From IMG/VR virus record IMGVR_UViG_3300045988_088999, positions 48,961 through 112,960 of that record: a DNA stretch of 64,000 nt; one strand, given 5' to 3'. The notes under the pieces were generated by a model. That model saw nothing but the letters and a program-made list of their open reading frames with translations. It was not told where the DNA came from and did no database searches. This DNA comes from a virus. Within the stretch, counting starts at the first letter, position 1. Each line of letters begins with the position of its first letter. A program made the translations under genes and the position numbers. Positions 436 to 48,135 of the stretch are shown piece by piece.

Positions 436-1644
436 ATGGGAAAACTTTTAAGAGATGAAACTTTTGTTGCTGCTATGAATAAGCAGAACGCCATACTGGA
501 AGTTCTTGCTGCCGATAAGATACAGCAGATGTCTGGTAACTGGGCAGAAGTTGCTACTCTAGTTCGTGCTGGTTATGCAGAATATGTTTATGATTTTGGC
601 GACCAGTTTAAGGATAAGTGGACTGATACCGCTAACTCTAATAAGGAATATGCGAACTATAATTGGCACGTTGGTCATTTCGGCAATTACTTACTTCAGG
701 ATGGCGAAACTGTACCGGGTATGACTATTCAGGCACACTATGCGCATCCGTTTGGTGTACAGTTTAGTCACCAGAGAGCATTTTTGAAGTGTGATACCGA
801 ATTAGCCGCTGGTACTTACTACTTTACGATAGAAACTAAGTGGGGTAACAATGTTGCTGCTGGTGATATTGTCAGCTTCACTCTTACTAAGCCGGTTCCT
901 GCTGGTGGACGTATTTCAGGTTGCTATGGAGCACCTGACCAAGTAAAAGCTAACTGGCGTATCTATACTTGGGCGGCAGATGGTAAGACTAAGGTTGAAG
1001 ACAACATTACTCCGACATTTACCGCATCTGGTACGAATCTTGGTACTATGAAGCATGATAAGCGTAACGGCAACTTGAACTCCTGTCAGGAAATGGCTTA
1101 TGGATGGAACAGGTGGAAAACATCCGCACTACGTCAGTACCTAAATAGCTCTGCTACTAAGGGTAACTGGTGGGTAGCACAGGATGAGTGGGATATTGCA
1201 CCTGACGAGTTGGCATTCCATGACGGTTTCTTGACTGGTATGCCAGCTGACCTTTTAGATGCTATCAAGCCTGTTAAGATTGTTACCTATCCAAATACCG
1301 TAAATGACGATATTGCTGGTAATACCCCTGACGTTACCTACGATAAGGTATTCTTGCCAGCACTTGAGCAGATTTATGTAAATCCTCAGAAAGCTGGCGA
1401 GGGAGATGCTTGGGAATACTGGAAGCGTGTTGCTGGCACCACCACTCCGTTGGCTCAGTGGGGTACTTATCCTCAGATGATTACCTATGCTATTGAGAAT
1501 ACTTCTAGCGCACAGGGTGTGCGCTTGCGGTCTGCTTATCGTGGCAATGCTATTAGTGCGTGGTATGTCAACTCTAGCGGTTACGTCAACGGCTACGGCG
1601 CGAGCAACTCGCATAGGTTCTCGCCCGCTTGTGTCATCTGCTAA
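436..1644 (+). CDS. DGR variable (target) protein, putative receptor-binding fibre component with a C-terminal variable region
   Basis: GGAGG RBS upstream of the ATG. The last ~40 codons (nt 1513-1634) are an adenine-mutagenised copy of the repeat at 2259-2380. A stem-loop follows the stop. Confidence 0.85.
   Translation: MGKLLRDETFVAAMNKQNAILEVLAADKIQQMSGNWAEVATLVRAGYAEYVYDFGDQFKDKWTDTANSNKEYANYNWHVGHFGNYLLQDGETVPGMTIQAHYAHPFGVQFSHQRAFLKCDTELAAGTYYFTIETKWGNNVAAGDIVSFTLTKPVPAGGRISGCYGAPDQVKANWRIYTWAADGKTKVEDNITPTFTASGTNLGTMKHDKRNGNLNSCQEMAYGWNRWKTSALRQYLNSSATKGNWWVAQDEWDIAPDELAFHDGFLTGMPADLLDAIKPVKIVTYPNTVNDDIAGNTPDVTYDKVFLPALEQIYVNPQKAGEGDAWEYWKRVAGTTTPLAQWGTYPQMITYAIENTSSAQGVRLRSAYRGNAISAWYVNSSGYVNGYGASNSHRFSPACVIC
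1513..1634 (+). repeat. DGR variable repeat (VR)
   Basis: 122-bp alignment with 2259-2380. The 16 mismatches all fall where the other copy has A (A to G/T/C). Homology stops after ...cccgCttgtGt, which fits an IMH boundary. Confidence 0.9.
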
Positions 1645-1653
1645 TCCTAGTAA

Positions 1654-1690
1654 TCTTGCACGAATACTTTCGTGCAAGATTTTCTATTTA
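1654..1690 (+). terminator. 11-bp stem-loop (tcttgcacgaa/ttcgtgcaaga) plus T-tract, 20 nt downstream of the VR
   Basis: Perfect inverted repeat followed by ttttctattt. Could serve as a rho-independent terminator and/or the hairpin that DGRs need downstream of the VR for homing. Confidence 0.7.
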
Positions 1691-1783
1691 GATTAAAAGC
1701 AGTAATTTCCTTAGAGAAATACTGTTGTCCGAATATTAACAATAAAAGCAAATATATAAAAATTAAATTAAGGAGGCCGCACA

Positions 1784-2080
1784 ATGTCTGTTCCGGCTGG
1801 TCAAAGAAAAGAAAATAGACTAGAAGTCGTTATGCAAGCCAGAGAGCTTGCAGTCTACACTTTAAGAATCACATCTAACAAGAATGTATTTATTCCTGAT
1901 TACGATGAATCGGTCAAACTAAAAATCCAAGATTCCGCATTGACCATCTTTAATAATCTTATGGATGCAAACAACATTAGAGTTGACGATAATGTTGGAA
2001 GATGGCAGGAGCGCGATAAGCTCCAAAGAGATGCGGCAAAAGCGTGTAATACACTATTAAACCTTATATACTTGGCATAG
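1784..2080 (+). CDS. avd: Avd-like DGR accessory protein (small helical protein)
   Basis: 98 aa, AGGAGG RBS. Sits between the target gene and the TR, as in canonical target-avd-TR-RT cassettes. Avd-like size and helical composition. No strong motif, so the call rests on position. Confidence 0.5.
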   Translation: MSVPAGQRKENRLEVVMQARELAVYTLRITSNKNVFIPDYDESVKLKIQDSALTIFNNLMDANNIRVDDNVGRWQERDKLQRDAAKACNTLLNLIYLA

Positions 2081-2258
2081 ACGTTATATCATCTAAGAGC
2101 CAGCCGTATTAAGTATTGGTCTGAATCTGTCATTTCAGTCAGAGGTTTAATTCGTAAGTGGAATCACAGCGATTGTACTCGGTATGGACATCTCCTTAAA
2201 GAATCTAAAGAAAAAGACGAAACTTAATTTTTATATATATTTGGGTTATAACCTGATT

Positions 2259-2380
2259 CAGAATGTGCGCTTGCGGTCTGCTAATCGTGGCAATGCTAAT
2301 AATACGTGGAATGTCAACTCTAGCGGTAACGTCAACAACAACAACGCGAGCAACTCGAATAGGTTCTCGCCCGATTGTAT
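2259..2380 (+). repeat. DGR template repeat (TR)
   Basis: Invariant partner of the VR. The frame reading NVRLRSANRGNANNTWNVNSSGNVNNNNASNSNRFSP is rich in AAC (Asn) codons, and each is altered in the VR. Confidence 0.9.
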
Positions 2381-2572
2381 TTGAAAGTCCCTAATAAAAA
2401 ATCTTACGCATAGCGCAAGCTAGGTTCTCGACTTCAAACACAAGGAGGTTATAACCCTGTTATCTTGCTAAAAAAAATATAAAAGATAACTAAACCACTC
2501 TATGCCGATGGCGTTGGTTTTCGAGCCAGTACGCCTATATACGGCTTAGTTTAGTTGTTGTGTCAAAGTTTA
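2381..2572 (+). other. TR-RT spacer, probable structured part of the DGR template RNA
   Basis: ~190 nt non-coding stretch between the TR and the RT start, where DGR spacer RNA lies in characterised elements. Confidence 0.4.
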
Positions 2573-3526
2573 ATGAATAATAATTAGGAATCGAATCAAG
2601 TAGTAAATGTCCTAGACTTCGAGCACCTACTTGATTCTTTATATAAGTGCAAGAAAAATGTTAGCTGGAAAGAATCTGTCGCTAATTTCTATATTCATGG
2701 AATCGAACAGGTTCTTAAACTAGAAGAACAACTTGCAAACGGAACATATCAACCACGTCCAACTAAGACTGTTCATATCACTCATCCGAAAGAAAGAATT
2801 GCTGTAAGCATAGCTTTCAGAGACAGAGTATATCAACGTAGTCTTAATGATAATATAGTGTATCCGTTAATGACTCGAAGTTTTATTTATGATAATTGTG
2901 CTTGTCAAAAGGGTAAAGGAACCGATTTCGCTAGAGGCCGTTTAAAATGTCATCTGCAAAGATGCTATAGAAAGAATGGTCTTGATGCTTGGGTTCTGCA
3001 ATGCGACATTAAGCACTATTATGATAATATGCGGCATGATACAACAAATGCCTTGTTCAGAGAGAAATTACCAGTAGAATATGCAGATAGAGTCTGTAGA
3101 ATATTAAATGAACAATATCTTGGTGATACAGGGTATAATCCCGGTAGCCAAGTTGTTCAGATTGCTGGTATTTCTGTTCTGGATAGACTTGACCATAAGA
3201 TTAAAGAACGTATGCACATTAAGTATTATATTCGTTATATGGATGACTTTATTCTTATTCATCACGATAGAAATTACTTAATCAAGTGTATGCACGAGAT
3301 TCAAGAAGAACTAGCTAAAATTGGTCTTGAATTGCATCCTAAGAAAACCAAACTCTATAGAGTTGGTAAAGGTATTCCATTCTTAGGATTTAAATTCAGG
3401 CTTACCGAAACCGGTAAGGTCGTTATGTCAATTCTTGGAGATAATGTTAAGAATGAAAAGCGTAAATTACGTAAAATGGTTAAACTTGTTGTAAAAGGTC
3501 GCAGAACCAAAGAAAAAATAGATTAG
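2573..3526 (+). CDS. DGR reverse transcriptase, with an in-frame TAG at codon 5
   Basis: RT motifs sit upstream of the tool's GTG at 2858: FEHLL..YKCKK, TYQPRP, FRDRVYQRSL, FIYDNCACQKGKGTD, PGSQ, RYMDDFILI, ELHPKKT, FLGFKF. The frame is open from 2588. ATG 2573 (MNNN) is separated from it only by TAG 2585-2587. Confidence 0.85.
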
Positions 3527-3623
3527 TGCTATAGTTGTTGGGTTGCTCATGCAGAGCATGGTAATTCATATAAACTAATATAGCGAATGAATAAATTCTA
3601 CGATGATTTATGGAGGTAGAATT

Positions 3624-3803
3624 ATGATTTTTCAGAAGGCGATTATGAATCCTCACGAGGAGAAGATGGTCGAATATCGCAATGCTTAGATTAGCAATCA
3701 ACAGTCTTTGATTGAGTATATTGCTGTTATGAGTGATATTGACCTACCTGTTGAAGAAGAGAAAACCGCTAGTATGGGCGGCATGGAAGATATGGAGGGC
3801 TAA
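3624..3803 (+). CDS. small hypothetical protein (59 aa only if the in-frame TAG at 3687-3689 is read through; otherwise a 21-aa peptide)
   Basis: Strong GGAGGT RBS 6 nt before the ATG. The frame stays open after the TAG until the TAA at 3801. Confidence 0.35.
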
Positions 3804-3806
3804 TAT

Positions 3807-3959
3807 ATGACCGATATGGAACTGTCCGCACACGGAAAGAAAGCTAAGTATTACTACGATTCTGGTTTCTGGACTAAGAAAATGGTTTATAACGTAACCA
3901 AAAAGGGCTGGATTACTCCAGAAGAGTACGAGTATATTACTGACGATAAGTACATTTAA
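3807..3959 (+). CDS. xkdX: XkdX-like small tail-associated protein
   Basis: 50 aa; FWTKKMVYNVTKKGWITPEEYEYITD matches the XkdX family signature (W.K.MV...V.KGWIT.EEY.EIT). GGAGGG RBS. Confidence 0.7.
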   Translation: MTDMELSAHGKKAKYYYDSGFWTKKMVYNVTKKGWITPEEYEYITDDKYI

Positions 3960-4006: not shown

Positions 4007-7000
4007 TTGAATAGCTTGAACGGAACTTATATTTTTGAAATTGTAAACAGAACAATCGTTCCAAGCGCAACTGAAGAATTGGCTGTTGTAAATGATAATG
4101 ATTCAAGATATATTACCTTTAAGATTCCATCAGTGATTGATGGTATTGATATTACCGATAAGATTCTTACTGTCAGATATGTCAATTCTCTGAATCGTTA
4201 TGACCAGTTTTTCTGTAATAGCAGAGAGGTTATTACGGAAGGTAACGAGCAGTTTGTCCTGTTCGACTGGGTTCTTGATTCTAATGTCACAAGTGCTAAA
4301 GGCACTGTAACTTATGATGTATCAATATATGATACAAATGATATGACTAACGTATCACAATATATTCTTCACACAAAACCAGCTACTTTTCAGGTTGAGG
4401 AAGGATTACTTGATACCGGTGCGCCTATCGAAGATGAGAATACACTTCAGGCAGCTATTGATAGTTTTAATGCTATCGCTGCTAAATATTACCATGATAC
4501 GCTTGCAGCATCAAAAGCGGCTCAAGCGGCTGCTGATGCTGCCGCTAAAAGTGCTGCATCGTTAAAGGTAGATACTACACTTACACTTTCTGGCTATGCC
4601 GCTGATGCAAAAGCTGTCGGAGATAGATTGACCGGTAAAGCAGAATCGTCTGAAGTAACCTCTATTAGAAGTGATTTACAGAATGAAATTGACAGAGCTA
4701 CTGATGCGGAAAGTCAGCTAAAGGAAGATTTAGAAATCAGCAAAATTTTTAAAACTTCAAACATTCTTTCAGCCAGTGATTATAATTTTAAAAAGAATTA
4801 TTATTACAGTCCGTCTGTCAACGATTTTGTTTCCAGAAATGGAAATATTGCGTATAATCAGCCTATTTCGGCTGGTGAAAGCGAAGTATATGTGTCAAAT
4901 GCAAGTATTGCTGTATTTTTGGACAAAGACAACAGAGTAATTAGTCATAATGAATCAAGTACAACTGTGGAATCATTTGCAGTTTACACAACGCCAGCCG
5001 AATGTAAATCAATAATGGTTAGTTGGTATTATACAGCAGATATTAACAAATTATACTTTGCACAATACAATTCTGGCGCACTCTACACAAAAAGAAATGC
5101 ACTAACAAAAACATTGTTTTCGAACATTGATGCCTCACAAGCTAATGTAAATGGGTCAAGATTAACAGACGCGGTGCGTGGCAAAATACTTGAAGGTAAT
5201 ACAAACATAGGTAAAACTTATGACGTAGACATTAAACAGGGCGTTAATTTTATCATTAAAATCAACCCCAAAAATGCAAACGTAACAATTAGCGAAATTA
5301 CAAAAGACGGTTCCCAAAACTACATTAACTATAATCAGCATATTTCCAACAATGGGTTATACAGATTTACTGCAAGCACAGATATTTTAGGGCTTAGATT
5401 CACAGACATGACAGAAGAAATTAAATTTTCTGTGTATCTTCCAAACGATGACAACAAAGCACTTGAACTTTTTTTCCCGGAGCAATTCCGTCCTGATAAA
5501 AATATCAAAGAAAGAAATACCGTTTCTGGGTATAGAATTAACGCACTGGAACGAAAAATTGACACCGCCGCAACTGGAAATATTACTTTCTATGATGTCA
5601 GCGGATGCGAATATATCCGAATCAGCCCATTCAGATTTTACGGAACGCATGGGTACGCATTTTTTTACAACAACGGCTTTGTGCCTAACATCACAACTCA
5701 CATTGAACAAGTAAAAATTATTGATTCAAAAGAAACATTAAGTTTCCAAGACACGGTTATCAAAGTGCCAGATGGATGCAACTATTTTGGCATGACGTGG
5801 CTAAATGAAAATAATTACGTTCCAAAAGTCACTAAAATGCTATTTGCAGAAAAAGAAAATTCTAATCTACAAGACTTTTATGGAATTTTCAAAAATTTTG
5901 GCAACCAAAATTGCTATAGTTTATTGTCACTTATTGCTAATTCAACAAAATCCACTAACTTGACATCTCAAACCCTTAAAAAACTAACAAAAAATGACAT
6001 CTCATTTGGACACATGGGCCAACTTGTAATTAAAGATGGCATGTGCTATGCAAGCTTTTTGCAAAACAGTGGAACGGATGGAGAAGCCCTATACAGTGAA
6101 ACAAGCGAACTTGTCCTTGCAAAATTTTTGCTTTCAGATACACTGTCGGATAGCTTTTCGCCTGATACAAACACTCAAGTCAAAGCAATAGGAAAACTCG
6201 GAAGTGCTTGTGCAGGACATATTGCAAAATCAATATATAAGGATAATGCAATGTGTTTAATTGGCAATAAACTGTATATTACATTTATGTTTATTTCTGA
6301 GACTGATTCTGACGCACACCTGTTTAGAAAAGTATATAATATCAGTTCTGACACATTTGAGGACGAAGTAGCTTGCGAAATTGAATATAAGGGTAAAACA
6401 TATCCGTTTACAAACAGCACAATCAACATGATTTACGGTGAAAATCATTTAAATCAAAATGCTAGTGGAATCATGGAAATTGTAAGCGAATGGAGCAAAT
6501 ACAATTCGGAATACTATGCAACCGGAATCAACGGTGACAAGCCAAACAACGGGTTTATTATTAAAACGTCTGATTTTAAGAAATATTATTTTGTTGATGT
6601 ATTGCCATTCAATGACAACGGAATAGCAGAAATTGCATCTATTGTGTACGATAACAAGTTGTATGTCGCGTGTCGTCAAAATTACGGGCTTCCATATCTA
6701 CTTTTAGCTTTTTATAACCTACAAAACGGAACATGGGGTACACCATACAGGATTCAAGACGGGAATGTAAGACCTTGGTTTTACAAAAAAGACGGGGCGT
6801 TATATTTAATTAACACAATCGAAGAGTATTACCGCAGATATACTAATATTTCTAATGTTTTAACATCCGGCTATCTTGGTGCATCAGCACCAATCAAAAT
6901 AATCGCTACATTATGTAATTGTGGAAATTATATTGCAACATCGGAGTATAACAAGAATACATACTATGTGTGTACATATAAAGGAACAATTTATTTTGGA

Positions 7001-7066
7001 ATATTAGACGTTATCAAATATGACGAGACTATCGTTAATAACAAATTGCTAAAACTACTGGAATGA
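4007..7066 (+). CDS. tail fibre protein (1019 aa); the true start is probably the TTG at 4016
   Basis: N-terminal domain paralogous to ORF 1-407. Ala-rich coiled segment (AAKYYHDTLAASKAAQAAADAAAKSAAS). Long beta-rich C-terminal part. The AGGAGG RBS directly abuts the first TTG. Confidence 0.75.
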   Translation: MNSLNGTYIFEIVNRTIVPSATEELAVVNDNDSRYITFKIPSVIDGIDITDKILTVRYVNSLNRYDQFFCNSREVITEGNEQFVLFDWVLDSNVTSAKGTVTYDVSIYDTNDMTNVSQYILHTKPATFQVEEGLLDTGAPIEDENTLQAAIDSFNAIAAKYYHDTLAASKAAQAAADAAAKSAASLKVDTTLTLSGYAADAKAVGDRLTGKAESSEVTSIRSDLQNEIDRATDAESQLKEDLEISKIFKTSNILSASDYNFKKNYYYSPSVNDFVSRNGNIAYNQPISAGESEVYVSNASIAVFLDKDNRVISHNESSTTVESFAVYTTPAECKSIMVSWYYTADINKLYFAQYNSGALYTKRNALTKTLFSNIDASQANVNGSRLTDAVRGKILEGNTNIGKTYDVDIKQGVNFIIKINPKNANVTISEITKDGSQNYINYNQHISNNGLYRFTASTDILGLRFTDMTEEIKFSVYLPNDDNKALELFFPEQFRPDKNIKERNTVSGYRINALERKIDTAATGNITFYDVSGCEYIRISPFRFYGTHGYAFFYNNGFVPNITTHIEQVKIIDSKETLSFQDTVIKVPDGCNYFGMTWLNENNYVPKVTKMLFAEKENSNLQDFYGIFKNFGNQNCYSLLSLIANSTKSTNLTSQTLKKLTKNDISFGHMGQLVIKDGMCYASFLQNSGTDGEALYSETSELVLAKFLLSDTLSDSFSPDTNTQVKAIGKLGSACAGHIAKSIYKDNAMCLIGNKLYITFMFISETDSDAHLFRKVYNISSDTFEDEVACEIEYKGKTYPFTNSTINMIYGENHLNQNASGIMEIVSEWSKYNSEYYATGINGDKPNNGFIIKTSDFKKYYFVDVLPFNDNGIAEIASIVYDNKLYVACRQNYGLPYLLLAFYNLQNGTWGTPYRIQDGNVRPWFYKKDGALYLINTIEEYYRRYTNISNVLTSGYLGASAPIKIIATLCNCGNYIATSEYNKNTYYVCTYKGTIYFGILDVIKYDETIVNNKLLKLLE

Positions 7067-7112
7067 TAGCCAACCTGATAACTAAATGAGATTTTAGCAT
7101 ACTTATAACGAG

Positions 7113-7748
7113 GTGATAATTATGGTTAAAACTTATAGCGTAAAAAATCAAGGTAATGTCAAATTATCTACAAACTTTACCGTAAAAGAGTTCGCCTGCA
7201 AAGATGGTTCCGATTCTGTTCTTATCGACATTGCTCTCGTTGAAGTCCTACAAAAAATTCGTGAACATTTTGGCAAACCAGTTATAATAAATTCTGCGTA
7301 TCGTACACCAGAGCATAATCGTAGGGTCGGCGGTACTTCCGGTTCATATCACGTAAAAGGTATGGCCGCTGATATTCAGATTTCTGGTGTATCAGCAGTT
7401 GAGATTGCTTATTTTGCTCAGACTATTACTAACGGTGTTGGTGTTTACTACTATGGTAACACTAACTTTGTTCATGTAGATACTAGACAAAATAGAACTT
7501 TCTGGCTATGTGCGCAAGCTGGACGTTACGAATATTACAGAACTGATTTAATGCCAATAATCAAACGTGGAACAAATGTTGGCAAGGCTTCTGCTGTAAA
7601 GTTTGTTCAAAAGAAACTTGGTTTACCTATTGACGGTCAATTTGGAAAAAATACTGAAAATAAGGTAAAAGAGTTCCAGAAAGTACATGGTTTAACTGCT
7701 GACGGAATTGTTGGAATGAACACTTGGAAAGCAATGTTTGTTAGATAA
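7113..7748 (+). CDS. endolysin: M15-family zinc peptidase with C-terminal peptidoglycan-binding domain
   Basis: SAYRTPEHNRRVGGTSGSYHVKGMAADI matches the peptidase M15 (YcbK-like) motif. The C-terminus LGLPIDGQFGKNT...GLTADGIVGMNTW is a PG_binding_1-type repeat. Confidence 0.75.
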   Translation: MIIMVKTYSVKNQGNVKLSTNFTVKEFACKDGSDSVLIDIALVEVLQKIREHFGKPVIINSAYRTPEHNRRVGGTSGSYHVKGMAADIQISGVSAVEIAYFAQTITNGVGVYYYGNTNFVHVDTRQNRTFWLCAQAGRYEYYRTDLMPIIKRGTNVGKASAVKFVQKKLGLPIDGQFGKNTENKVKEFQKVHGLTADGIVGMNTWKAMFVR

Positions 7749-7759
7749 TCTAAGGAGAA

Positions 7760-8077
7760 ATGAATATGACTATTGAACTGTTTTGTACTTTGCTTCTTGC
7801 TTTTGGTACTCTGACTACAATCGTTGTTGAGTTCCTAAAGAAGATTCTTACTGGTCTAAAGATTAACTACAACACATCCGCTGTTGCTCTTGGCACTGGT
7901 GGACTTGTTGGTGTAGTTGGTACTTGTGCGTACTTTGTAATGGCAAATATCGCATTTACTCCACAGAGTATCATGTGGATTATTTTTGAAGGTATCTGTG
8001 TCATTATGGGTTCACAGCTAGGCTACGATAAGATTGTGGCAATAATTAAACAAATAACTGCTAATAAACGGGCATAA
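7760..8077 (+). CDS. holin-like membrane protein
   Basis: 105 aa with 2-3 predicted TM helices and a charged C-terminus, immediately downstream of the endolysin. Confidence 0.6.
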   Translation: MNMTIELFCTLLLAFGTLTTIVVEFLKKILTGLKINYNTSAVALGTGGLVGVVGTCAYFVMANIAFTPQSIMWIIFEGICVIMGSQLGYDKIVAIIKQITANKRA

Positions 8078-8093
8078 TATAATAGGGATAGTA

Positions 8094-8135
8094 ACTAAAA
8101 ATGTTACTATCCCTATCTTTTTCGTCTTTAGGCCA
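8094..8135. terminator. bidirectional rho-independent terminator at the strand switch
   Basis: 12-bp stem agggatagtaac/gttactatccct, loop taaaaat, T-rich on both sides. Separates the + late block from the - block. Confidence 0.8.
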
Positions 8136-8158
8136 TATTGAACATTTTATAAGACCTC

Positions 8159-8419
8159 TTAGCACTCACCGCAACATTCACCACAGCAATGCGCTTTTAC
8201 GAGTTCTCCAATCTTATTCTGTGCAGTCTTAAATGCTTCATTAAAATTTTCAATAGCGGATTCTGCATCGACATCCTTGTAATCAGAACCACCATCTGCC
8301 CACATAATAGTCCATCCGTGTTTGCCAGCCTCAATTCTTACAGTCAGCCCAAAATTATCTTTGTAACTTTCACGCAATTCAACTTCACTACTGGGCATCA
8401 TGCCAAACATTCGTTTCAT
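8159..8419 (-). CDS. hypothetical protein with Cys-rich C-terminus (HCCGECCGEC)
   Basis: ORF with GGAG RBS. Confidence 0.5.
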   Translation of the reverse strand: MKRMFGMMPSSEVELRESYKDNFGLTVRIEAGKHGWTIMWADGGSDYKDVDAESAIENFNEAFKTAQNKIGELVKAHCCGECCGEC

Positions 8420-8441
8420 TTTATAGGCTCCAACCTCTTAT

Positions 8442-9296
8442 TTACTTACCCTTGGTAACGACTGTATCGGCCCCCTGTACAGTAACCCAACCATGCTTCA
8501 GACGAGCTTCTGCTTCCTTCATCTGAATCAGCTCAGGAGTGATAGACTCGGAAAGCACCTTATTTGCATTAGCCTCGGCCTGTGCTTCAATCATCTTAAC
8601 GTCAGCTTCTGCCTGTGCCTTAACTTTATCAGTCTCTGCCTGAGCCAAAGCTGTCTGCTTATTCAGCTCTGCAATCTCTGCATCCTGTTTCGCCTGTTCC
8701 TTTGCACGAATCTTCTGCATCAGGGTATCGTCAGGCTGTGCATCAACAATTAAAGCAGAGGTGACGTTGATACCATATTCATTAGACAGCTTTTCATTCA
8801 GATATTCAGTGATTGCGGCATTAACACCAGCACGGTCATCGGAATAAATCTGCATAACACTAAACTTTGGAGTAACTTCCTTGACATAAGCAATAATGTC
8901 GTTCTGAATCTTGCTCTCCATCAAGCTTTCGCCGTTCATTCCGTTAAACTTTGTGTAAAGTTCAACAATACGATTTGCGTCAAAGCTATAGTTTACAGTC
9001 AGGTTGATAGCAATAGTGCCACCATTTGCGGGCGCATCAATGTGCCAATCTGCGTGTTCTTTAGCGCCATAATCCTCTGCACTATTAGAAAATACAATTC
9101 TCTGCTGACTAATAGGGAAGTTGGCAACGTGTTTCATGGGACTCATAAAGTGCCAACCCTGAGAAATCGTAGTCTGCTCAACACCCTTTGCAGAGTAAAC
9201 AACACCAACATAGCCGACAGGAACACGGACAACACAAGTTACCACAATAATCAGTGCGATAACTGCGGCAACAATACCAGAAATAATTTTCTTCAT
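8442..9296 (-). CDS. SPFH/band-7 (flotillin/prohibitin-like) membrane protein
   Basis: N-terminal TM helix, SPFH-like core, then an EA-rich coiled coil (AKEQAKQDAEIAELNKQTALAQAETDKVKAQAEADVK). Confidence 0.65.
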   Translation of the reverse strand: MKKIISGIVAAVIALIIVVTCVVRVPVGYVGVVYSAKGVEQTTISQGWHFMSPMKHVANFPISQQRIVFSNSAEDYGAKEHADWHIDAPANGGTIAINLTVNYSFDANRIVELYTKFNGMNGESLMESKIQNDIIAYVKEVTPKFSVMQIYSDDRAGVNAAITEYLNEKLSNEYGINVTSALIVDAQPDDTLMQKIRAKEQAKQDAEIAELNKQTALAQAETDKVKAQAEADVKMIEAQAEANANKVLSESITPELIQMKEAEARLKHGWVTVQGADTVVTKGK

Positions 9297-12580: not shown

Positions 12581-12864
12581 ATACGCTTATTAGATGTTGG
12601 GCCAAAACAAGACTCACGCTCTTTAAAACCGTACTTGGACAAGTCGCCATCGGAATCGGTTATACATACGTGAATTGCATTTTTATCAATAATTGTATAC
12701 ATGTTACCGTGTTTGAGAGGTCTATTATCATACTCACAGTATGGAAGCCAACCTTTTCTGAATCCTTTGTTAGCATCATATACTTCGTTATCGAAGTAGT
12801 TTTCGATAATCACACTATCCATTGGAACTGTATAACAAAGAACTCCTCTTACGATATTATTCAT
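12559..12864 (-). CDS. hypothetical protein
   Basis: ORF of 101 aa. Confidence 0.45.
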   Translation of the reverse strand: MNNIVRGVLCYTVPMDSVIIENYFDNEVYDANKGFRKGWLPYCEYDNRPLKHGNMYTIIDKNAIHVCITDSDGDLSKYGFKERESCFGPTSNKRIWVNTEV

Positions 12865-14327
12865 AAAATACTACCACCACTTAAATTAAATAATTCGGAT
12901 GCTTTTGCATACAGGGCATCATGTTTATTCTCGATTAAATCTAAGAAATACAGATGCAAAAGATGGTTTAAAGTTTTACGGATGCGGATACCTTCAAAGC
13001 CAATTTCCATAAGGTCATCTCCGTTAATGTCAAGGTCTTTTACAGTGAATACATTTTCGTCCTTAACATCATAGAAGATGCTCATAGAGTCGTAGCATTG
13101 TTCCCAACTGTTTGAATAGCAAGCAGGAATATTACTCTGCATCAGCATCAAATCAAGCATACGTTCTGTATCTTCTTTACCAAGTTTGTTGATAAGAACG
13201 CGCATCTTATATTTGCTCGTAGGGACAAATTCAAAAGACTGCTTGATGATACGACACACAGACTCCATAGTAGCGTTGTCGAACTTTAGGTCTTTCATGA
13301 CGTTATGTGCGATAGCACTTGCCGCAGTTGCAATTTCTTCCAAGGTCAGATGCTTGCGAATTTCGCTTTCAAACATTGTGAGATTACGGAACAGTAACGC
13401 ATAAGAAGTAATCTTATCGCGGTGATTATCACCTTCAATAAATTCATGCGCAATATCTGTATAAAGGTCGAAGCGACTCGGATTTTCTGTATATGAGATA
13501 TTTCCTGTTAGATTATTAAGTTCTGGGATAATTTCTACAAGAATATCGCTAAACTTCATCATAATATCACCGAACTTATATGTTGTAATCATCTTATCAA
13601 GTTCTGCGCGGATTCTCTCTTTAGATACACATTCCAGTTTCTTTTTGCAGACACGCATACCATAGGCCGTGTCTTCGTCAATATTGTAACCAAAGACACA
13701 AGCAAATCGCATAGCACGAAGAATCCGCAAGCCATCCTCTTGAAATCTAAGAACAGGATTGCCAACACATACAATCTTCTCTGCATGGAGACACCAGAAA
13801 CCGTTGTAGGGGTCAACAAAGCCGCGTTCTTTATTATACGCAATAGCGTTAATACTAAAATCACGTCTGCTTAAATCTTCCTCAATGGTTTTAGCGAACT
13901 TTACGCTGTCTGGATGCCGACCGTCAGAATAATCACCATCAATGCGGAACGTGGTAATTTCATACCCTACGCTATCAATCATAACAGTGACAGTACCATG
14001 TTTGATGCCAGTTTCGATAATCTGCTCATTGTTGAATACAGATTCAATCTGCTCCGGTGTTGCAGACGTGGTAATGTCAAAATCTTTTGGAGTTCTCATC
14101 CGAAGCATATCTCTGACACAACCACCTACAAGATATGCTTCATGTCCTGCATTAGATAAAGAATCTAACAAAAACATAGCGGTATTGAATCGCTTATCCT
14201 TCTCAATTTGTGCCAAACAACGCTTCTGGAACGATTCAGAAATAGCATAATTATTGCTATTTAATTTTCTACTCGTAAATCCCTCAACAGGGATAGTATT
14301 AGGTAGCTCCTGTGTTCTAAAACTCAT
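12861..14327 (-). CDS. cca: tRNA nucleotidyltransferase (CCA-adding enzyme / poly(A) polymerase family)
   Basis: YLVGGCVRDMLRMRTPKDFDITT...GTVTV...YEITTFRIDGDYSDGRHP...EEDLSRRDFSINAIA matches the class II head-domain signature GG.VRD...D.D...RRDFTINA. Confidence 0.85.
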   Translation of the reverse strand: MSFRTQELPNTIPVEGFTSRKLNSNNYAISESFQKRCLAQIEKDKRFNTAMFLLDSLSNAGHEAYLVGGCVRDMLRMRTPKDFDITTSATPEQIESVFNNEQIIETGIKHGTVTVMIDSVGYEITTFRIDGDYSDGRHPDSVKFAKTIEEDLSRRDFSINAIAYNKERGFVDPYNGFWCLHAEKIVCVGNPVLRFQEDGLRILRAMRFACVFGYNIDEDTAYGMRVCKKKLECVSKERIRAELDKMITTYKFGDIMMKFSDILVEIIPELNNLTGNISYTENPSRFDLYTDIAHEFIEGDNHRDKITSYALLFRNLTMFESEIRKHLTLEEIATAASAIAHNVMKDLKFDNATMESVCRIIKQSFEFVPTSKYKMRVLINKLGKEDTERMLDLMLMQSNIPACYSNSWEQCYDSMSIFYDVKDENVFTVKDLDINGDDLMEIGFEGIRIRKTLNHLLHLYFLDLIENKHDALYAKASELFNLSGGSIL

Positions 14328-23635: not shown

Positions 23636-23899
23636 TTAATCCTCCTTGTGCCATTCAGAAAATACGGAAGTATCATTAGAATTTGCAAATACCTCAACAC
23701 CGACAATATCTGCAACAACAGGTTTACCGTTAATATCGTTGCCCAACATCTGTCCCATGAGCATTTGCTTAAACTCATCACGAATCTGTCCTGCGACAGT
23801 CGTTTCAGTAACCCCAGCGGCAATAGCCTTTTGCAGATTCTCGTCAATCTGCGCCGCGTCCATGCTATTTTCGACAGTAAATTCAACCTTAATCTTCAT
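23636..23899 (-). CDS. hypothetical protein
   Basis: ORF of 87 aa. Confidence 0.45.
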   Translation of the reverse strand: MKIKVEFTVENSMDAAQIDENLQKAIAAGVTETTVAGQIRDEFKQMLMGQMLGNDINGKPVVADIVGVEVFANSNDTSVFSEWHKED

Positions 23900-23901
23900 A
23901 A

Positions 23902-24393
23902 CTATTTCTCCAATCTGTTCCCAAGAACGTCATAATTATCGTAGTAACGATACATAGAAGTGACCCAAGAACGCTTCTCGATACAACCATCATAGAAAAC
24001 GAGTGTTCCGGCTAAATTAGCACTGCACTCATTGAGTGCTTTCCGAATAACTGCCTCTGTGCGCCCCATAAAGTAAGAATCATCAATAAGTACGTAATTC
24101 TCACCGGACTTTACATATTCGGAAAGGTCTAACTTTGTGTTAGATTTACGCAAGCCGCCCGGAACAATCAGGTCTGTAGTAAAACCATAATTGAAATATG
24201 CAATTCCGGTTTTACCGGTAACAACATACTTATATTTGTCGTGCGGATACATTATCTTAACATCGTGGTCAAGCATTGCAAGAATCTCTTTACTCGCTCT
24301 GATAGAATCGTCAAGCTGGTCAAAGAAAATCTCGCCACCAACAAACTTTTCCAAAAGCTCATTTACCTTTGTGACAACAATATCGTAACTCAT
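23902..24393 (-). CDS. hypothetical protein with a weak phosphoribosyltransferase-like motif
   Basis: VLIDDSYFMGRTEA resembles a PRTase PRPP loop. Low confidence. Confidence 0.35.
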   Translation of the reverse strand: MSYDIVVTKVNELLEKFVGGEIFFDQLDDSIRASKEILAMLDHDVKIMYPHDKYKYVVTGKTGIAYFNYGFTTDLIVPGGLRKSNTKLDLSEYVKSGENYVLIDDSYFMGRTEAVIRKALNECSANLAGTLVFYDGCIEKRSWVTSMYRYYDNYDVLGNRLEK

Positions 24394-42515: not shown

Positions 42516-42629
42516 ATCATCGAAATAATGAAGATAGTAGTAATATTTGCAGTTAAAGAAACTTTTTAGTTTTGAAAAAGAGTAGGTGTTTACCTACACA
42601 TTCTTATTCATACCCATGTCAATCATCCT

Positions 42630-45543: not shown

Positions 45544-45813
45544 GGGGTTTTGGAAAATTTCTTAAAGAAAAATCCGGGATGATTACTACCTAGTAGTAGT
45601 ATACCATCCCGGACTCAAGAAGTCAAGAGGTTATTCTAAATTTTTTAACTCGGAATTTATAAAGTCTATCTTCTGTTCTATAAACAACAACTGTTGGTTG
45701 TAATAGTCAGACTGATACGCTTCACAAGACTGAAGCAAACCGTTCGTCTCGTCAAGTTCTGACTGAACCCCATTTAGTTCATCTAATAGGAACTGTCGAT
45801 AATCAGATTTGCC

Positions 45814-46344
45814 CTATTCAGCAAAGTATTCAGAATATTCATAATAAAGCTCTGTAATTTCAATAGTAGCTTTATTTTTCTTCTGACCGTTTGCCTTTCG
45901 CTTTTTTACAGCACCCTCGCCGCAAGTATAAACATAGAACGCATCTTCCATATTTGTAGCTTTATCCATTGCGTGTCTAAGAATCAATGCACCAGCTCTA
46001 ATGTTTGTCTCTGGGTTATACAAACCTTTCTTAGATGTTTTTAATCCATTATTTGAAAGAAAATTCAAAATATCTGACGTACATCCAACTTGCATTAGGC
46101 CAATATAGCTTGTGCCAACATCGCTCTTAAATCTTGACTCGTGATAGATAATAGCAACTAACGCAGAATACGGAACATCAAGCTCCTCGCTTACTTCTCT
46201 TGTATATACTTTTAGATTGTTATTCCACGATTCATATAATTCAAACTTGTCACTAAAATCTGCCGCTTTTGACGGAACTGCCACAGCGCAAATTATCGCA
46301 AATGTTGTAAGCAAAGCAATGATAGCTCCTAGCAGTTTCTTCAT
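45814..46344 (-). CDS. secreted lytic transglycosylase (SLT domain)
   Basis: Signal peptide; YHESRFKSDVGTSYIGLMQV matches the SLT ES...GLMQ motif. Confidence 0.75.
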   Translation of the reverse strand: MKKLLGAIIALLTTFAIICAVAVPSKAADFSDKFELYESWNNNLKVYTREVSEELDVPYSALVAIIYHESRFKSDVGTSYIGLMQVGCTSDILNFLSNNGLKTSKKGLYNPETNIRAGALILRHAMDKATNMEDAFYVYTCGEGAVKKRKANGQKKNKATIEITELYYEYSEYFAE

Positions 46345-46661: not shown

Positions 46662-46736
46662 TGGAGCGTCATATTGGAGTCGAACCAATCTAAAAGAGAT
46701 TTGCAGTCTCTCGCCTATCCGTCTGGCACATGACGC
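46662..46736 (-). tRNA. tRNA-Cys (anticodon GCA), CCA encoded
   Basis: Hand-folded cloverleaf: acceptor GCGTCAT/ATGACGC, anticodon arm AGAGA-CTGCAAA-TCTCT, T-arm ATTGG-TTCGACT-CCAAT. Confidence 0.8.
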
Positions 46737-46862
46737 ATATTTGCAATTTAGGTTTTGCGAACCACACATCGAGCATATACTCCGTTAAATCCCCTTGTGG
46801 TACAATCACTCCGAGACGGTTTTGTAACACCGTATGCTCCATTTTGTTCATCTTTACGGTCA

Positions 46863-46953
46863 TGGCGTGGTAGAAGGGATTTGAACCCCTGCACGGCCTA
46901 CGCCGCCTACTTGCTTTCCAAGCAAGCCCCTTCGACCTCTTGGGTACTACCAC
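46863..46953 (-). tRNA. tRNA-Ser (anticodon GGA), type II, CCA encoded
   Basis: Acceptor GTGGTAG/CTACCAC, anticodon arm CTTGC-TTGGAAA-GCAAG, 19-nt variable arm, T-loop TTCAAAT. Confidence 0.75.
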
Positions 46954-46956
46954 ATA

Positions 46957-47187
46957 TTATGCCTTAGTTACTAAAGGCATAACGCGAGTATCGTTGCATC
47001 CAGCGGTTTCATACCTAGTGAATACACGATATTTTCTATCAGATTTCAGAGTATCTTTATAATACTTCAAAATCCTTAAACCGTATTTACTCTTAGACGT
47101 TTTATTATTAACTTGATAATTAGCCCAGTCAATAATCTCTTTTCCAGTAAACATAGTTCCGTTTTGATAGCTCAGAATATTTTTCAT
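46957..47187 (-). CDS. small hypothetical protein (76 aa) inside the tRNA array
   Basis: GAGGT RBS; ORF flanked by tRNAs. Confidence 0.5.
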   Translation of the reverse strand: MKNILSYQNGTMFTGKEIIDWANYQVNNKTSKSKYGLRILKYYKDTLKSDRKYRVFTRYETAGCNDTRVMPLVTKA

Positions 47188-47204
47188 TTGTTACCTCACA
47201 ATAA

Positions 47205-47281
47205 TGGTGTTTCCAGAATGAATCGAACATTCGACCTCAATCTTATCAGGATTGCGCTCTAACCAACTGAGCTATGGAAAC
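47205..47281 (-). tRNA. tRNA-Ile (anticodon GAT), CCA encoded
   Basis: Canonical cloverleaf: GTTTCCA-TA-GCTC-AGTTGGTTA-GAGC-G-CAATC-CTGATAA-GATTG-AGGTC-GAATG-TTCGATT-CATTC-TGGAAAC-A-CCA. Confidence 0.9.
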
Positions 47282-47310
47282 ATAAATTGCTGTCTTTCCA
47301 GCAGTCATCG
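47282..47310. repeat. 29-nt motif ataaattgctgtctttccagcagtcat (5-bp hairpin tgctg/cagca), copy 1 of 2, immediately 5' of a tRNA
   Basis: Identical copy at 48832-48860. Confidence 0.5.
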
Positions 47311-47429
47311 GTTTATCCGCAATGTGCTTGTTCCTTAACACAAACACGGCATACTGTCATATCACGCATTTACTATATTTTTTACGCATACCAGCTACAA
47401 TAGTTGCAACTCGAAAACTACTTACCGCG

Positions 47430-47517
47430 TGGTGCGCCCGGTGGGACTTGAACCCACGATAGGAATAATCCACCCCGGATTAAAAGTCCGGTGCTATACC
47501 AACTTAGCTACGAGCGC
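47430..47517 (-). tRNA. tRNA-Lys (anticodon TTT) with an unusual 17-nt variable region
   Basis: Acceptor GCGCTCG/CGGGCGC (one G.T), anticodon arm CCGGA-CTTTTAA-TCCGG, T-arm GTGGG-TTCAAGT-CCCAC. The variable region GGTGGATTATTCCTATC is far longer than in normal Lys tRNAs. Confidence 0.6.
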
Positions 47518-47656
47518 AAATGAAAGCACGAATACCCGCCCACGTGCATGGTACTTGCTCTTCTGTCTTGTCAGTACCTCCCAAGTCCATTAACTCTATG
47601 GACACGATAGTTAAAAATACTTGCCTATACCTATTCTACCACGGCATAGGTGCGAT

Positions 47657-47744
47657 TGGAGCCAGTGACAGGACTTGAACCTGCGAGAACCCTTTCGGCA
47701 TCGGGATTACAAAACCCGCGTTCTACCAACTGAACTACACTGGC
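47657..47744 (-). tRNA. tRNA-Thr (anticodon TGT) with an unusual 17-nt variable region
   Basis: Acceptor GCCAGTG/CACTGGC, anticodon loop TTTGTAA, T-arm GCAGG-TTCAAGT-CCTGT. Variable region ATGCCGAAAGGGTTCTC. Confidence 0.6.
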
Positions 47745-47842
47745 AAATCTAAAAGACACATTAAAAATTGAACAATAAAGCTACTCAAAATTTAACAAGA
47801 GTTTGCTGGATGTGTCTTTTCATATATAAAAATAAAGGAGGG

Positions 47843-48079
47843 TTATTTTCTTACCTTCATATCTAACATAGTAAGCCTATCTTCACGCCTAAAAGAAATT
47901 ATATCATACCATCTTTCTAAGATGTATTTTAGCTGTCTAAGTTCACTCTCGTTGAACGGTTCACGTTCATCTCTTAGATATAAAGTAACAATTCCATTTT
48001 CTTCACCAATCTTTAGTCGGGAAATCTTGCTCATAATGTTATCATCAGCAACTTCACCCAACATTTGAAAGAAAACCAT
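47843..48079 (-). CDS. small hypothetical protein (78 aa) inside the tRNA array
   Basis: ORF between tRNA genes. Confidence 0.45.
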   Translation of the reverse strand: MVFFQMLGEVADDNIMSKISRLKIGEENGIVTLYLRDEREPFNESELRQLKYILERWYDIISFRREDRLTMLDMKVRK

Positions 48080-48135
48080 AGGATTATTATTATCAATCTA
48101 CTGCATCGGATTCATTCCCCTTCTTTTTTAGATTT

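What the first reader, a model, noticed from the sequence alone, without database searches (positions are those of the whole stretch)
2573..3803. Two in-frame TAG codons whose read-through would restore full-length proteins (RT codon 5; ORF 3624)
The RT frame is open from 2588 and encodes conserved N-terminal RT sequence (..NVLDFEHLLDSLYKCKKNVSW..). The only ATG is at 2573 (MNNN), followed directly by TAG at 2585-2587, and there is no ATG, GTG or TTG until 2858, which lies after RT motifs 1-2. Separately, the ORF with a strong GGAGGT RBS at 3624 hits TAG after 21 codons (3687-3689). Its frame then continues 37 more codons to TAA at 3801, filling an otherwise empty gap before xkdX. The phage carries ~17 tRNA genes, two of them unresolved tRNA-like genes, so programmed amber suppression by a phage suppressor tRNA or TAG recoding in late genes is one possibility. 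Non-AUG initiation, pseudogenisation or sequencing errors are the alternatives.
Basis: inference. Interest (0 to 1): 0.55.

Follow-up and report, generated by a model that had tools for sequence, protein, structure and literature searches.

The report
Phage reads TAG stop as glutamine
The "broken" reverse transcriptase and neighbouring small genes of this large phage are intact genes in which the TAG stop codon is translated as glutamine, a known alternative genetic code of gut phages; no tRNA that could read TAG was found.

Summary
In the window, TAG interrupts the DGR reverse transcriptase three times (2585, 3524, 3581). It also interrupts the DGR accessory gene Avd (2078), ORF3624 (3687) and an SLT transglycosylase on the minus strand (45814-45816).

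These are sense codons, not damage:
- The same genes in nine independent assemblies of relatives carry CAG or CAA where this phage has TAG, and TAG where it has CAG.
- Across late genes, 74 of 99 TAG-versus-other codon pairs are Gln.
- Sequence after the TAGs is under purifying selection.
- The DGR shows fresh adenine-only TR/VR mutagenesis, so the RT has worked.
- TAG rarely ends a gene (3 real cases), and its neighbouring bases look like those of Gln codons.

This is TAG-to-Gln recoding ("genetic code 15"), concentrated in late genes. It is already described for gut phages, including amber codons in DGR RT genes.

No CUA-anticodon tRNA, release factor or class-I aminoacyl-tRNA-synthetase motif was found. 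I searched the window and about 82% of a 150-kb relative, which together hold two tRNA arrays with about 23 tRNAs. The decoder therefore remains unknown.

Verdict: a new member of a known kind, of moderate interest.

The parts
436..1644 (+). DGR target gene (402 aa, DUF6273 / Hoc-like C-terminal domain). Its variable repeat (VR) lies at 1513-1634. It has no in-frame TAG.
   Evidence: Pfam and PHROG hits. VR/TR repeat. All 16 VR/TR mismatches fall at TR adenines.
1784..2227 (+). Avd, the DGR accessory protein (147 aa), with an in-frame TAG at 2078-2080 (codon 99).
   Evidence: phrog_3206 'Avd protein of DGR' matches residues 2-144, across the TAG. Codon 99 is TAG in the window, L001, L004, L006 and L002, and CAR (Gln) in L003 and L005.
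2259..2380 (+). DGR template repeat (TR).
   Evidence: 120-nt direct repeat of 1513-1632. Differences from the VR occur only at TR adenines.
2573..3715 (+). DGR reverse transcriptase. ATG 2573. Translated TAGs at 2585-2587 (codon 5), 3524-3526 (codon 318) and 3581-3583 (codon 337). The ancestral stop is TAG 3617-3619 (codon 349). If that TAG is also read, a non-conserved tail runs through TAG 3692-3694 to TGA 3713-3715.
   Evidence: Translation. RVT_1 domain. P0001 is the same gene called with TAG=Q. Codon table across 6 relatives. Homologue columns: Gln in 47 of 116 at codon 337, and 36 of 116 end at LWR.
3624..3803 (+). ORF3624 (59 codons) with TAG at 3687-3689 and TAA at 3801-3803. It is in the same frame as xkdX and forms its N-terminal part in relatives.
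   Evidence: Translation. TAG 3687 is CAG in L003, L004 and L006. TAA 3801 is CAA in L004 and L006, where a single 121-126-aa ORF spans both parts. In L002 they are fused (102 aa, PF09693).
3807..3959 (+). XkdX-family small protein (50 aa).
   Evidence: PF09693, E=5e-10.
4007..8458 (+). Rest of the late/lysis block: a 1019-aa protein, an M15 peptidase with PG_binding_1 (endolysin, 7113-7748) and two small ORFs. None has an in-frame TAG in this window.
   Evidence: ORF list. Pfam.
45631..46344 (-). SLT-domain transglycosylase with an N-terminal membrane anchor (237 aa) and a translated TAG at 45814-45816.
   Evidence: PF01464. The 60-codon stretch after the TAG shows 9 synonymous and 1 non-synonymous change against each of 5 relatives. 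The real stop alternates between TAA and TGA.
46662..51583 (-). tRNA array 1: 13 canonical tRNAs (Cys, Ser, Ile, Lys, Thr, Val, Leu, Arg x3, Phe, Glu, Trp). None has a CUA anticodon. The array contains a Thg1-like gene (50137-50979).
   Evidence: ARAGORN. Rfam tRNA model. Regex for a CUA anticodon arm. PF04446.
49078..49320 (-). Element A (49228-49320) is cloverleaf-like with UAA at the anticodon position. Element B (49078-49198) has a tRNA-like core with a 6-nt anticodon loop and a mismatched acceptor stem.
   Evidence: Rfam hit of 41 bits. Folds. 95% conserved in 5 relatives. Motif enrichment: 3 matches against 0.06 expected.
12861..14327 (-). CCA-adding tRNA nucleotidyltransferase. It is part of a tRNA-maturation/repair toolkit together with the Thg1-like gene (50137-50979), a kinase+HD protein (57041-57946) and an RNA ligase (62870-63991).
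   Evidence: Pfam.
23896..24393 (-). Early gene that ends in TAG (23902-23904), with a back-up TGA two codons later (23896-23898). Gene 30920-31858 has the same arrangement (TAG 30926-30928, TGA 30920-30922).

Best explanation
The window comes from a large (about 115-150 kb), probably gut-associated tailed phage. Its late genes are written in a code in which TAG is a sense codon for glutamine (NCBI table 15).

RT, Avd, ORF3624 and the SLT transglycosylase are intact genes. Ribosomes in the late-infected cell insert Gln at UAG and terminate only at UAA or UGA. RT translation starts at ATG 2573 and reads TAG as its fifth codon, so no RT can be made while UAG still means stop.

The replication, nucleotide-metabolism and tRNA-processing genes on the minus strand contain no internal TAG and are readable in the standard code. 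The result is a temporal gate: early genes are expressed at once, and the DGR, structural and lysis genes only once UAG suppression is established.

Shown here: TAG is translated, and its meaning is Gln. Inferred: the timing and gating role.

Unknown: the decoder. No CUA tRNA, release factor or class-I aminoacyl-tRNA-synthetase motif was found in the window or in about 82% of a relative's genome. It could lie in the unseen 27 kb, be too unusual to detect, or be host-derived.
For: 1. TAG and Gln codons interchange at homologous positions among relatives.
- RT codon 46 is CAG, CAA or TAG; codons 318 and 337 are TAG or CAA.
- Avd codon 99 is TAG or CAR.
- ORF3624 has TAG where relatives have CAG.
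- The 78% relative L002 has five other TAGs, two of them where the window has Gln, and has Gln at two of the window's three internal RT TAG sites.

2. Over all late genes of four genomes, TAG pairs with CAG 53 times and with CAA 21 times out of 99. Gln is the commonest residue at RT codon 337 in 116 distant homologues.

3. In relatives, ORF ends coincide only if TAG is sense, and the TAGs sit at different codons in each. Examples are a 538-aa gene and a roughly 2100-aa tape-measure-like gene with 2, 12 and 2 TAGs.

4. Sequence after the SLT TAG shows purifying selection: 9 synonymous to 1 non-synonymous change.

5. The DGR is functional: all 16 TR/VR differences are at TR adenines.

6. The same TAGs occur in independent assemblies from different samples. 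A public gene caller already translated the gene with TAG=Q (P0001, cluster of 137 sequences).

7. TAG ends only about 3 real genes of roughly 85, and two of those have TGA two codons later.

8. The base after TAG (+4) follows the same distribution as after CAG and CAA, so there is no read-through motif.

9. The phenomenon and its late-gene bias are documented, including amber codons in DGR RT genes.
Against: No tRNA with anticodon CUA was detected. This holds for the window, both tRNA arrays of five close relatives and the other flanks fetched.

No RF motif or class-I aaRS motif (GlnRS-type or KMSKS) was found, and Pfam showed no such domain.

If UAG is fully reassigned, the RT gains a tail after its ancestral stop (3617). 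That tail is not conserved: it is 4, 12 or 31 aa long in different relatives. This hints that suppression may be partial, or that the tail is simply tolerated.

Within this window all five late-block TAGs lie in Avd, RT and ORF3624, and none in the other 2004 late codons (P about 5e-4). Uniform recoding does not predict this.

There is no protein-level evidence.
Confidence: 0.88

Rival explanations
1. Partial, regulated amber read-through rather than full reassignment. UAG stays a stop most of the time. A minority of ribosomes insert Gln, for example through near-cognate reading by the phage's own abundant tRNA-Gln(UUG), which lies just upstream of the late operon in relatives. TAG-bearing genes (RT, Avd, tape measure) are therefore made at low dose.
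For: - No dedicated CUA tRNA was found.
- A phage tRNA-Gln(UUG) is present in array 2.
- In the window, TAGs cluster in genes needed in low amounts.
- TAG is retained as the ancestral RT stop and as the stop of three early genes.
- The RT tail after 3617 is not conserved.
Against: - Genes with 6-12 TAGs, such as the tape-measure-like gene of L030 (12) and the RT of L004 (6), would yield almost no product at a few per cent read-through per codon.
- A UUG anticodon should misread UAA at least as well as UAG, yet TAA is the main terminator.
- TAG has no special sequence context.
Confidence: 0.15
2. The genes are decaying pseudogenes carrying nonsense mutations, and the DGR is a relic.
For: Under the standard code the RT is cut into pieces and lacks a start before motif 3.
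Against: - All interruptions are TAG and none is TAA or TGA (P=2e-6).
- TAG alternates with Gln codons among relatives.
- Sequence downstream of the SLT TAG is under purifying selection, and RT protein sequence is conserved on both sides of its TAGs in relatives.
- TR/VR differences are adenine-only, which indicates recent RT activity.
Confidence: 0.01
3. Sequencing or assembly errors created the TAGs.
For: None beyond the a priori possibility.
Against: The same TAGs occur in at least six independent assemblies from different samples and pipelines: Logan SRR23525258, and IMG/VR 3300039366 and 3300045988.
Confidence: 0.005
4. Standard code with unconventional expression. The RT would start at a non-AUG codon after the TAG, and ORF3624 would be two separate micro-ORFs.
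For: - No Shine-Dalgarno sequence precedes ATG 2573.
- The 65% relative L007 also lacks a canonical start upstream of its conserved RT N-terminus, although it has no internal TAG.
Against: - It cannot explain the internal TAGs at 3524 and 3581, nor those in Avd and SLT.
- No near-cognate start codon lies in frame between 2588 and 2858.
- The ATG-NNN-NNN-NNN-TAG arrangement is conserved in six relatives.
- In L002 the RT N-terminus has a similar length and begins at an ordinary ATG.
Confidence: 0.02
5. TAG is translated, but as an amino acid other than Gln, for example pyrrolysine, Tyr, Lys or Glu supplied by a host suppressor.
For: In 25 of 99 codon pairs TAG aligns with a non-Gln codon: GAA 5, ACT 4, GAT 3 and others. 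The decoder is unknown.
Against: 75% of pairs are Gln, against about 4% expected from codon usage. No other amino acid exceeds 5%. The remainder is scattered, as expected from ordinary divergence and from spurious ORFs.
Confidence: 0.03

Closest known systems
TAG-to-Gln stop-codon-recoded gut phages (genetic code 15): crAss-like, Lak, 'Garnet/Topaz/Agate' clades, phAss-1/Phassvirus (bioRxiv 10.1101/2021.08.26.457843; PMC9523058; PMC10607447)
   Same: - In-frame TAG in essential late genes, aligned to Gln in homologues.
- TAG is depleted as a terminator in a low-GC genome.
- Early genes are compatible with the standard code.
- Close relatives differ in which codons and genes are recoded.
- Large tRNA repertoires are present.
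   Different: - This is a different lineage. The best GenBank DnaE match is 59% identical (MT835481); the next matches are Clostridioides and Bacillus phages.
- No tRNA-Sup(CUA), RF2 or class-I aaRS motif was detectable in about 82% of the genome. phAss-1 has three Sup tRNAs. However, only about 40% of recoded phages have a detectable one.
Amber-interrupted DGR reverse transcriptases of zeta crAss-like phages (PMC12386605)
   Same: A DGR cassette (target, Avd, TR, RT) lies in the structural-gene block of a recoded phage, with amber codons inside the RT ORF. Standard DGR finders and gene callers miss it.
   Different: - The phage family here is unrelated (siphovirus-like, with XkdX and an M15 endolysin).
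- Avd is also interrupted.
- TAG is the fifth codon of the RT and is conserved in all six close relatives.
- Those crAss-like clades carry CTA suppressor tRNAs.
Dual-coded phage genomes detected by Mgcod (bioRxiv 10.1101/2022.06.29.495998)
   Same: The genome is divided into blocks: a standard-code block (minus-strand replication genes) and a block that needs TAG to be sense (plus-strand late genes).
   Different: The block structure is not strict. One minus-strand gene next to the tRNA array, the SLT transglycosylase, also carries a translated TAG.
Classical amber suppression (supE-type tRNA-Gln CUA) and near-cognate Gln read-through of UAG
   Same: Gln is inserted at UAG, with competition from release factor 1.
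   Different: No CUA tRNA was identified. The frequency of TAG (4-10% of all Gln-type codons in late genes) is far beyond what leaky read-through normally supports.

Membership tests
TAG-to-Gln recoded phage (genetic code 15) | In-frame TAG inside conserved genes whose full-length homologous product requires read-through | tested here: met
   RT, Avd, ORF3624 and SLT in the window. Also 17-30 late ORFs per relative.
TAG-to-Gln recoded phage (genetic code 15) | TAG positions align with glutamine in homologues | tested here: met
   74 of 99 orthologous codon pairs are CAG or CAA. Site-by-site results.
TAG-to-Gln recoded phage (genetic code 15) | TAG avoided as terminator; genes end in TAA or TGA | tested here: met
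   Crude ORF set: TAA 56, TGA 27, TAG 6, of which about 3 are real genes and 2 of those have a TGA two codons later. Real stops switch between TAA and TGA among relatives.
TAG-to-Gln recoded phage (genetic code 15) | Recoded codons concentrated in late (structural/lysis) genes; early genes readable in the standard code | tested here: met
   Translated TAGs occur only in the plus-strand DGR/late block and in the SLT gene. None occurs in the annotated minus-strand replication, nucleotide-metabolism or tRNA-processing genes. The labels 'late' and 'early' are inferred from gene function, not measured.
TAG-to-Gln recoded phage (genetic code 15) | Phage-encoded suppressor tRNA with anticodon CUA (present in about 40% of described cases) | tested here: not met
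   None found by ARAGORN, the Rfam tRNA model or a CUA-arm pattern. The search covered the window and 122.6 of 149.8 kb of relative IMGVR_UViG_3300045988_127389. 27 kb remain unseen, so absence from the whole genome is not proven.
TAG-to-Gln recoded phage (genetic code 15) | Accessory code-change genes (RF2, GlnRS), which are optional and rare | tested here: not met
   No RF GGQ motif and no class-I aaRS motif (GlnRS-type or KMSKS) in six-frame translations of all loci. Pfam of 44 window proteins shows none.
TAG-to-Gln recoded phage (genetic code 15) | Peptides with Gln at UAG | not testable with these tools
   Needs (meta)proteomics.
Diversity-generating retroelement (DGR) | RT of the DGR clade | tested here: met
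   RVT_1 domain. More than 3900 homologues; the related viral loci have an Avd homologue just upstream of the RT. The G-x-x-x-S-Q motif (GYNPGSQ) is visible in the translation.
Diversity-generating retroelement (DGR) | TR/VR pair differing only at TR adenines, with the VR at the 3' end of a target gene | tested here: met
   TR 2259-2380 and VR 1513-1634, with 16 of 16 mismatches at TR adenines. The VR lies in the last 45 codons of the 402-aa target.
Diversity-generating retroelement (DGR) | Accessory variability determinant (Avd) | tested here: met
   phrog_3206, E=1e-8, over residues 2-144.

The most novel reading that the evidence does not exclude
UAG may be decoded without any canonical suppressor tRNA. 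The decoder would be one of the conserved, helix-enclosed, non-canonical tRNA-like RNAs in the phage's tRNA arrays: window 49078-49320, or a permuted Y-RNA-like element next to tRNA-Gln in relatives. It would become functional only after maturation by the phage's own toolkit (Thg1-like 5'-repair enzyme, CCA-adding enzyme, kinase/HD protein, RNA ligase). That would make the code switch depend on an RNA-processing step. A weaker variant is that the phage tRNA-Gln(UUG) is altered so that it reads UAG.
Probability: 0.08. Interest if true: 0.85.

Novelty: new member of a known kind. Interest (0 to 1): 0.38.

Why it matters
Practical consequence: under the standard code this phage's DGR looks dead, with a truncated RT and Avd. 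DGR finders and annotation pipelines would miss it or call it a pseudogene. With table 15 it is a complete, recently active DGR.

Biological interest:
- This lineage shows recoding in progress. Genomes that are 90-99% identical differ about 2.4-fold in the TAG share of Gln-type codons in late genes (25-65 TAG codons), through simple CAG-to-TAG changes.
- It places a hypermutation enzyme behind a TAG at codon 5.
- Like the majority of recoded phages, it has no recognisable suppressor tRNA, yet it carries an unusually rich tRNA-processing toolkit.
- That combination makes it a reasonable system for the open question of how such phages actually switch the code.

Tried and rejected
**Suppressor tRNA hunt.** Methods used: ARAGORN (default, intron-permissive and relaxed), the Rfam tRNA model, and a custom pattern for a CUA anticodon arm plus T-loop.
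- Searched: the window and all relatives' loci.
- I walked relative contigs with 8 viral-contig scans, 1 metagenome scan and 1 genome scan.
- Found: a second tRNA array (Met, Asn, Gln-UUG, Pro, Asp, Ala, Leu, Ser, Ser) but no CUA tRNA.
- The metagenome scan returned only distant relatives.
- A protein search meant to extend the walk found nothing.
- A look-up of the window's last gene found no exact match.

**The extra 'tRNA' at 49086-49157.** It has a 6-nt anticodon loop (CCGAAA) and 3 of 7 acceptor pairs mismatched. Its better-preserved version in L054 has the loop CUACAAA (anticodon ACA). It is not an amber suppressor.

**Element 49228-49320.** It is cloverleaf-like with UAA at the anticodon position, which is Leu-type and not a stop reader.

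**The Y-RNA-like element in relatives (L170 7384-7507).** It is a permuted tRNA-like module. No CUA can be assembled from its ends.

**Candidate in-frame TAGs at 42596 and 45095.** Rejected. The upstream frame is not conserved at the first, and a start codon directly follows the TAG at the second.

**General TAA/TGA read-through.** The TAA/CAA case at 3801 prompted this test. It was rejected: internal TAA and TGA are rare and mostly lie at ORF ends or in doubtful ORFs.

**Theta (HDV-like) ribozymes in the tRNA spacers.** No Rfam hit. The helix topology I inferred by eye does not fit an HDV-like fold, but this was not formally tested.

**Ro60 identity of the DUF2828+vWA protein.** No PDB sequence match. 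Left open.

**Host.** Only a 7-kb contig binned with a Gastranaerophilales MAG (78%) and distant Firmicutes hits. Unresolved.
Full report
**1. The observation**

- ATG 2573 (M-N-N-N) is followed by TAG at 2585-2587. The frame then stays open, and the ORF listing finds no ATG/GTG/TTG before GTG 2858.
- ORF3624 has GGAGGT 6 nt upstream of its ATG. It has TAG at 3687-3689 after 21 codons, then 37 more codons to TAA 3801-3803.

- The RT frame continues past TAG 3524-3526 into the conserved DGR-RT C-terminus (CYSCWVAHAEHGNSYKLI), passes TAG 3581-3583 (RMNKFYDDLWR) and reaches TAG 3617-3619.
- Avd (1784-2227) has a TAG at 2078.

The pattern is not chance. The 348-codon RT frame has three TAG and no TAA or TGA, where 12.9 are expected (P=2e-6). 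The other two frames hold 20 and 53 stops.

**2. What the region is**

Positions 436-3715 form a complete diversity-generating retroelement.
- The target gene (436-1644) carries the VR at 1513-1634.
- Avd matches phrog_3206 across its TAG.
- The TR lies at 2259-2380.
- The RT has an RVT_1 domain and more than 3900 homologues.
- All 16 TR/VR differences are at TR adenines. This is the signature of mutagenic retrohoming, so a working RT has been made by this lineage.

Downstream lie XkdX, a 1019-aa protein and an M15 endolysin.

From 8.4 kb onward the genes are on the minus strand. They encode DnaE, primase, SSB, ThyX, dUTPase, FolD, methyltransferases and others. A 13-tRNA array lies at 46.6-51.6 kb.

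**3. Comparative test**

A public protein, P0001 (99% identical, a cluster of 137 sequences), has exactly the length obtained by translating 2573-3715 with TAG read as Q. Its contig and that of a 78% relative do not translate under table 11.

IMG/VR holds four relatives with RTs 93-97% identical, on contigs of 7, 64, 115 and 150 kb.

Codon by codon:
- RT codon 5 is TAG in all six genomes compared.
- Codon 46 is CAG, CAA or TAG.
- Codons 318 and 337 are TAG in five and CAA in L005.
- Codon 349 (3617) is TAG in all, including the 65% relative L007, which has no internal TAG.
- 36 of 116 distant homologues end exactly there, so 3617 is the ancestral stop.

Other sites agree.
- Avd codon 99 is TAG or CAR.
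- ORF3624's TAG is CAG in three relatives.
- The 78% relative has five different TAGs in its RT. Two of them fall where the window has Gln. It has Gln at two of the window's three internal RT TAG sites.
- In upstream structural genes of the relatives, ORF ends coincide only when TAG is sense, and the TAGs sit at different codons in each genome. The tape-measure-sized gene has 2, 12 and 2 TAGs.
- Over all orthologous late-gene codon pairs, TAG faces CAG 53 times and CAA 21 times out of 99.
- Gln is the commonest residue at RT codon 337 among distant homologues.

One minus-strand gene is also affected. The SLT transglycosylase (45631-46344) has TAG at 45814-45816. The 60 codons after it show 9 synonymous and 1 non-synonymous change against each of five relatives. 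Its real stop alternates between TAA and TGA.

Two other candidate TAGs, at 42596 and 45095, proved to be non-coding.

The nucleotide context of TAG matches that of CAG and CAA, so there is no read-through signal.

**4. Stop-codon usage**

Crude standard-code ORFs end in TAA 56 times, TGA 27 times and TAG 6 times. Of the six TAG cases, the RT and Avd ones are internal codons and one ORF overlaps a tRNA. The SLT case is also internal. Two early genes remain, and each has a TGA two codons further on.

Coding density of the late block rises from 0.875 to 0.951 when TAG is treated as sense.

**5. Interpretation**

TAG is a glutamine codon in the late genes of this phage lineage (table 15).
- Pseudogenisation, sequencing error and non-AUG initiation are each contradicted by several independent lines of evidence.
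- The phenomenon, its late-gene bias and its proposed role as a translational timer are published.
- Amber codons in DGR RT genes have been reported in zeta crAss-like phages.
- This lineage is distinct from those. The best GenBank DnaE match is 59% identical, a human faecal 'Bacteriophage sp.'; the next matches are Clostridioides and Bacillus phages.

**6. Who reads UAG?**

This is the unresolved part. ARAGORN, the Rfam tRNA model and a direct pattern scan found no CUA anticodon in the window.

I walked the relatives' contigs with all available scans.
- A second array lies just upstream of the late operon: Met, Asn, Gln(UUG), Pro, Asp, Ala, Leu(UAG), Ser, Ser.
- It too has no CUA tRNA.
- No release-factor or class-I aaRS motif was found.

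About 122.6 of 149.8 kb of contig 127389 was covered directly or through the window. 27 kb remain unseen. Gly, His and Tyr tRNAs are missing from both arrays, so a third array is possible.

Published surveys detect a TAG suppressor in only about 40% of TAG-recoded phages. This negative result is therefore typical rather than contradictory.

The phage does encode a tRNA toolkit:
- a CCA-adding enzyme;
- a Thg1-like enzyme inside the tRNA array;
- a kinase/HD protein;
- an RNA ligase.

A CCA-adding enzyme and an RNA ligase are reported as enriched in gut phages that carry tRNA-associated theta ribozymes, which the authors link to recoding.

**7. Details worth keeping**

(a) If UAG is fully reassigned, the RT acquires a tail after 3617. 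It is 31 aa long here, 4 aa in L005 and 12 aa in L006. The tail is not conserved and is presumably tolerated.

(b) Within this window all five late-block TAGs lie in Avd, RT and ORF3624, which make up 554 of 2558 codons (P about 5e-4). In the 78% relative, RT and Avd carry 5 and 3 TAGs, while the XkdX and endolysin genes carry none. One inference is that TAG accumulates where low expression is acceptable, or that it gates the mutagenic RT to late infection.

(c) The share of TAG among Gln-type codons in late genes ranges from 4% to 10% between genomes that are about 90-99% identical. CAG/TAG turnover is therefore fast and ongoing.

**8. Verdict**

It belongs to a known phenomenon: it is a new lineage-level example, with an active DGR behind amber codons and no identifiable suppressor tRNA. 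Interest is moderate. The open mechanistic question, the identity of the decoder, gives it some residual value.

Noticed in passing
window 3624-3959: ORF3624 and xkdX are in the same frame, separated only by TAA 3801 and one codon (TAA TAT ATG). In L004 and L006 that TAA is CAA, and one 121-126-aa gene spans both parts. L002 also has them fused (102 aa). L003 shares the TAA. This is either a recent gene split rescued by immediate re-initiation, or a tolerated nonsense variant.
   Followed up: partly
window 49078-49320 (-); L170 7384-7507 and 7940-8010: There is a family of conserved structured RNAs in the tRNA arrays. Each is closed by a 7-9-bp outer helix (AGAYRCR...YGYRTCT) followed by ACAGCAAY. 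The enclosed content varies: a cloverleaf, a tRNA-like core without an acceptor stem, a permuted Y-RNA-like (YrlA, 37-39 bits) module, or a plain hairpin. The motif is enriched (3 matches against 0.06 expected). Function unknown.
   Followed up: partly
window 12861-14327, 50137-50979, 57041-57946, 62870-63991 (all -): The phage encodes a full tRNA maturation/repair toolkit: a CCA-adding enzyme, a Thg1-like 3'-5' polymerase embedded in the tRNA array, an AAA_33 kinase with an HD domain, and an RNA ligase. It also encodes a DUF2828+vWA 'RNA-binding protein' (53221-54720, phrog_850) that might be Ro60-like.
   Followed up: partly
window 47430-47517 and 47657-47744 (-): tRNA-Lys(UUU) and tRNA-Thr(UGU) are 88 nt long, with 13-15-nt insertions in the variable region. 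This is unusual for these class-I tRNAs. In relatives L051, L052 and L054 the Lys tRNA is a normal 77 nt.
   Followed up: no
window 23896-23904 and 30920-30928 (-): The two early genes that still end in TAG each have a TGA exactly two codons downstream. This tandem 'back-up' stop would limit the damage once UAG suppression is on.
   Followed up: no
L007 4570-4780 (65% relative, no internal TAG): This relative's RT also has no ATG/GTG/TTG upstream of its conserved N-terminal motif (IDVCDFEHL). The database protein starts 10 residues into the motif. An ATA after a GGAG could be the start. RT initiation in this clade may be unconventional regardless of recoding.
   Followed up: no
L170 6490-7135, L168 and L171 (absent in L169): A roughly 730-bp insertion carrying what looks, read by eye, like a GIY-YIG homing-endonuclease ORF (not scanned against Pfam) sits between tRNA-Met and tRNA-Asn in three of four relatives. 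A GIY-YIG domain is also fused to a Rep3-like protein in the window (10484-11518).
   Followed up: no
relatives' late regions (merged L-loci of contigs 127389, 122016, 094428): The number of TAG codons in late genes differs markedly between near-identical genomes: 65, 25 and 36. The tape-measure-like gene has 12, 2 and 2.
   Followed up: yes
window 8442-9296 and 51630-53162 (-): Two SPFH/Band-7 (flotillin-like) proteins are encoded by the phage.
   Followed up: no
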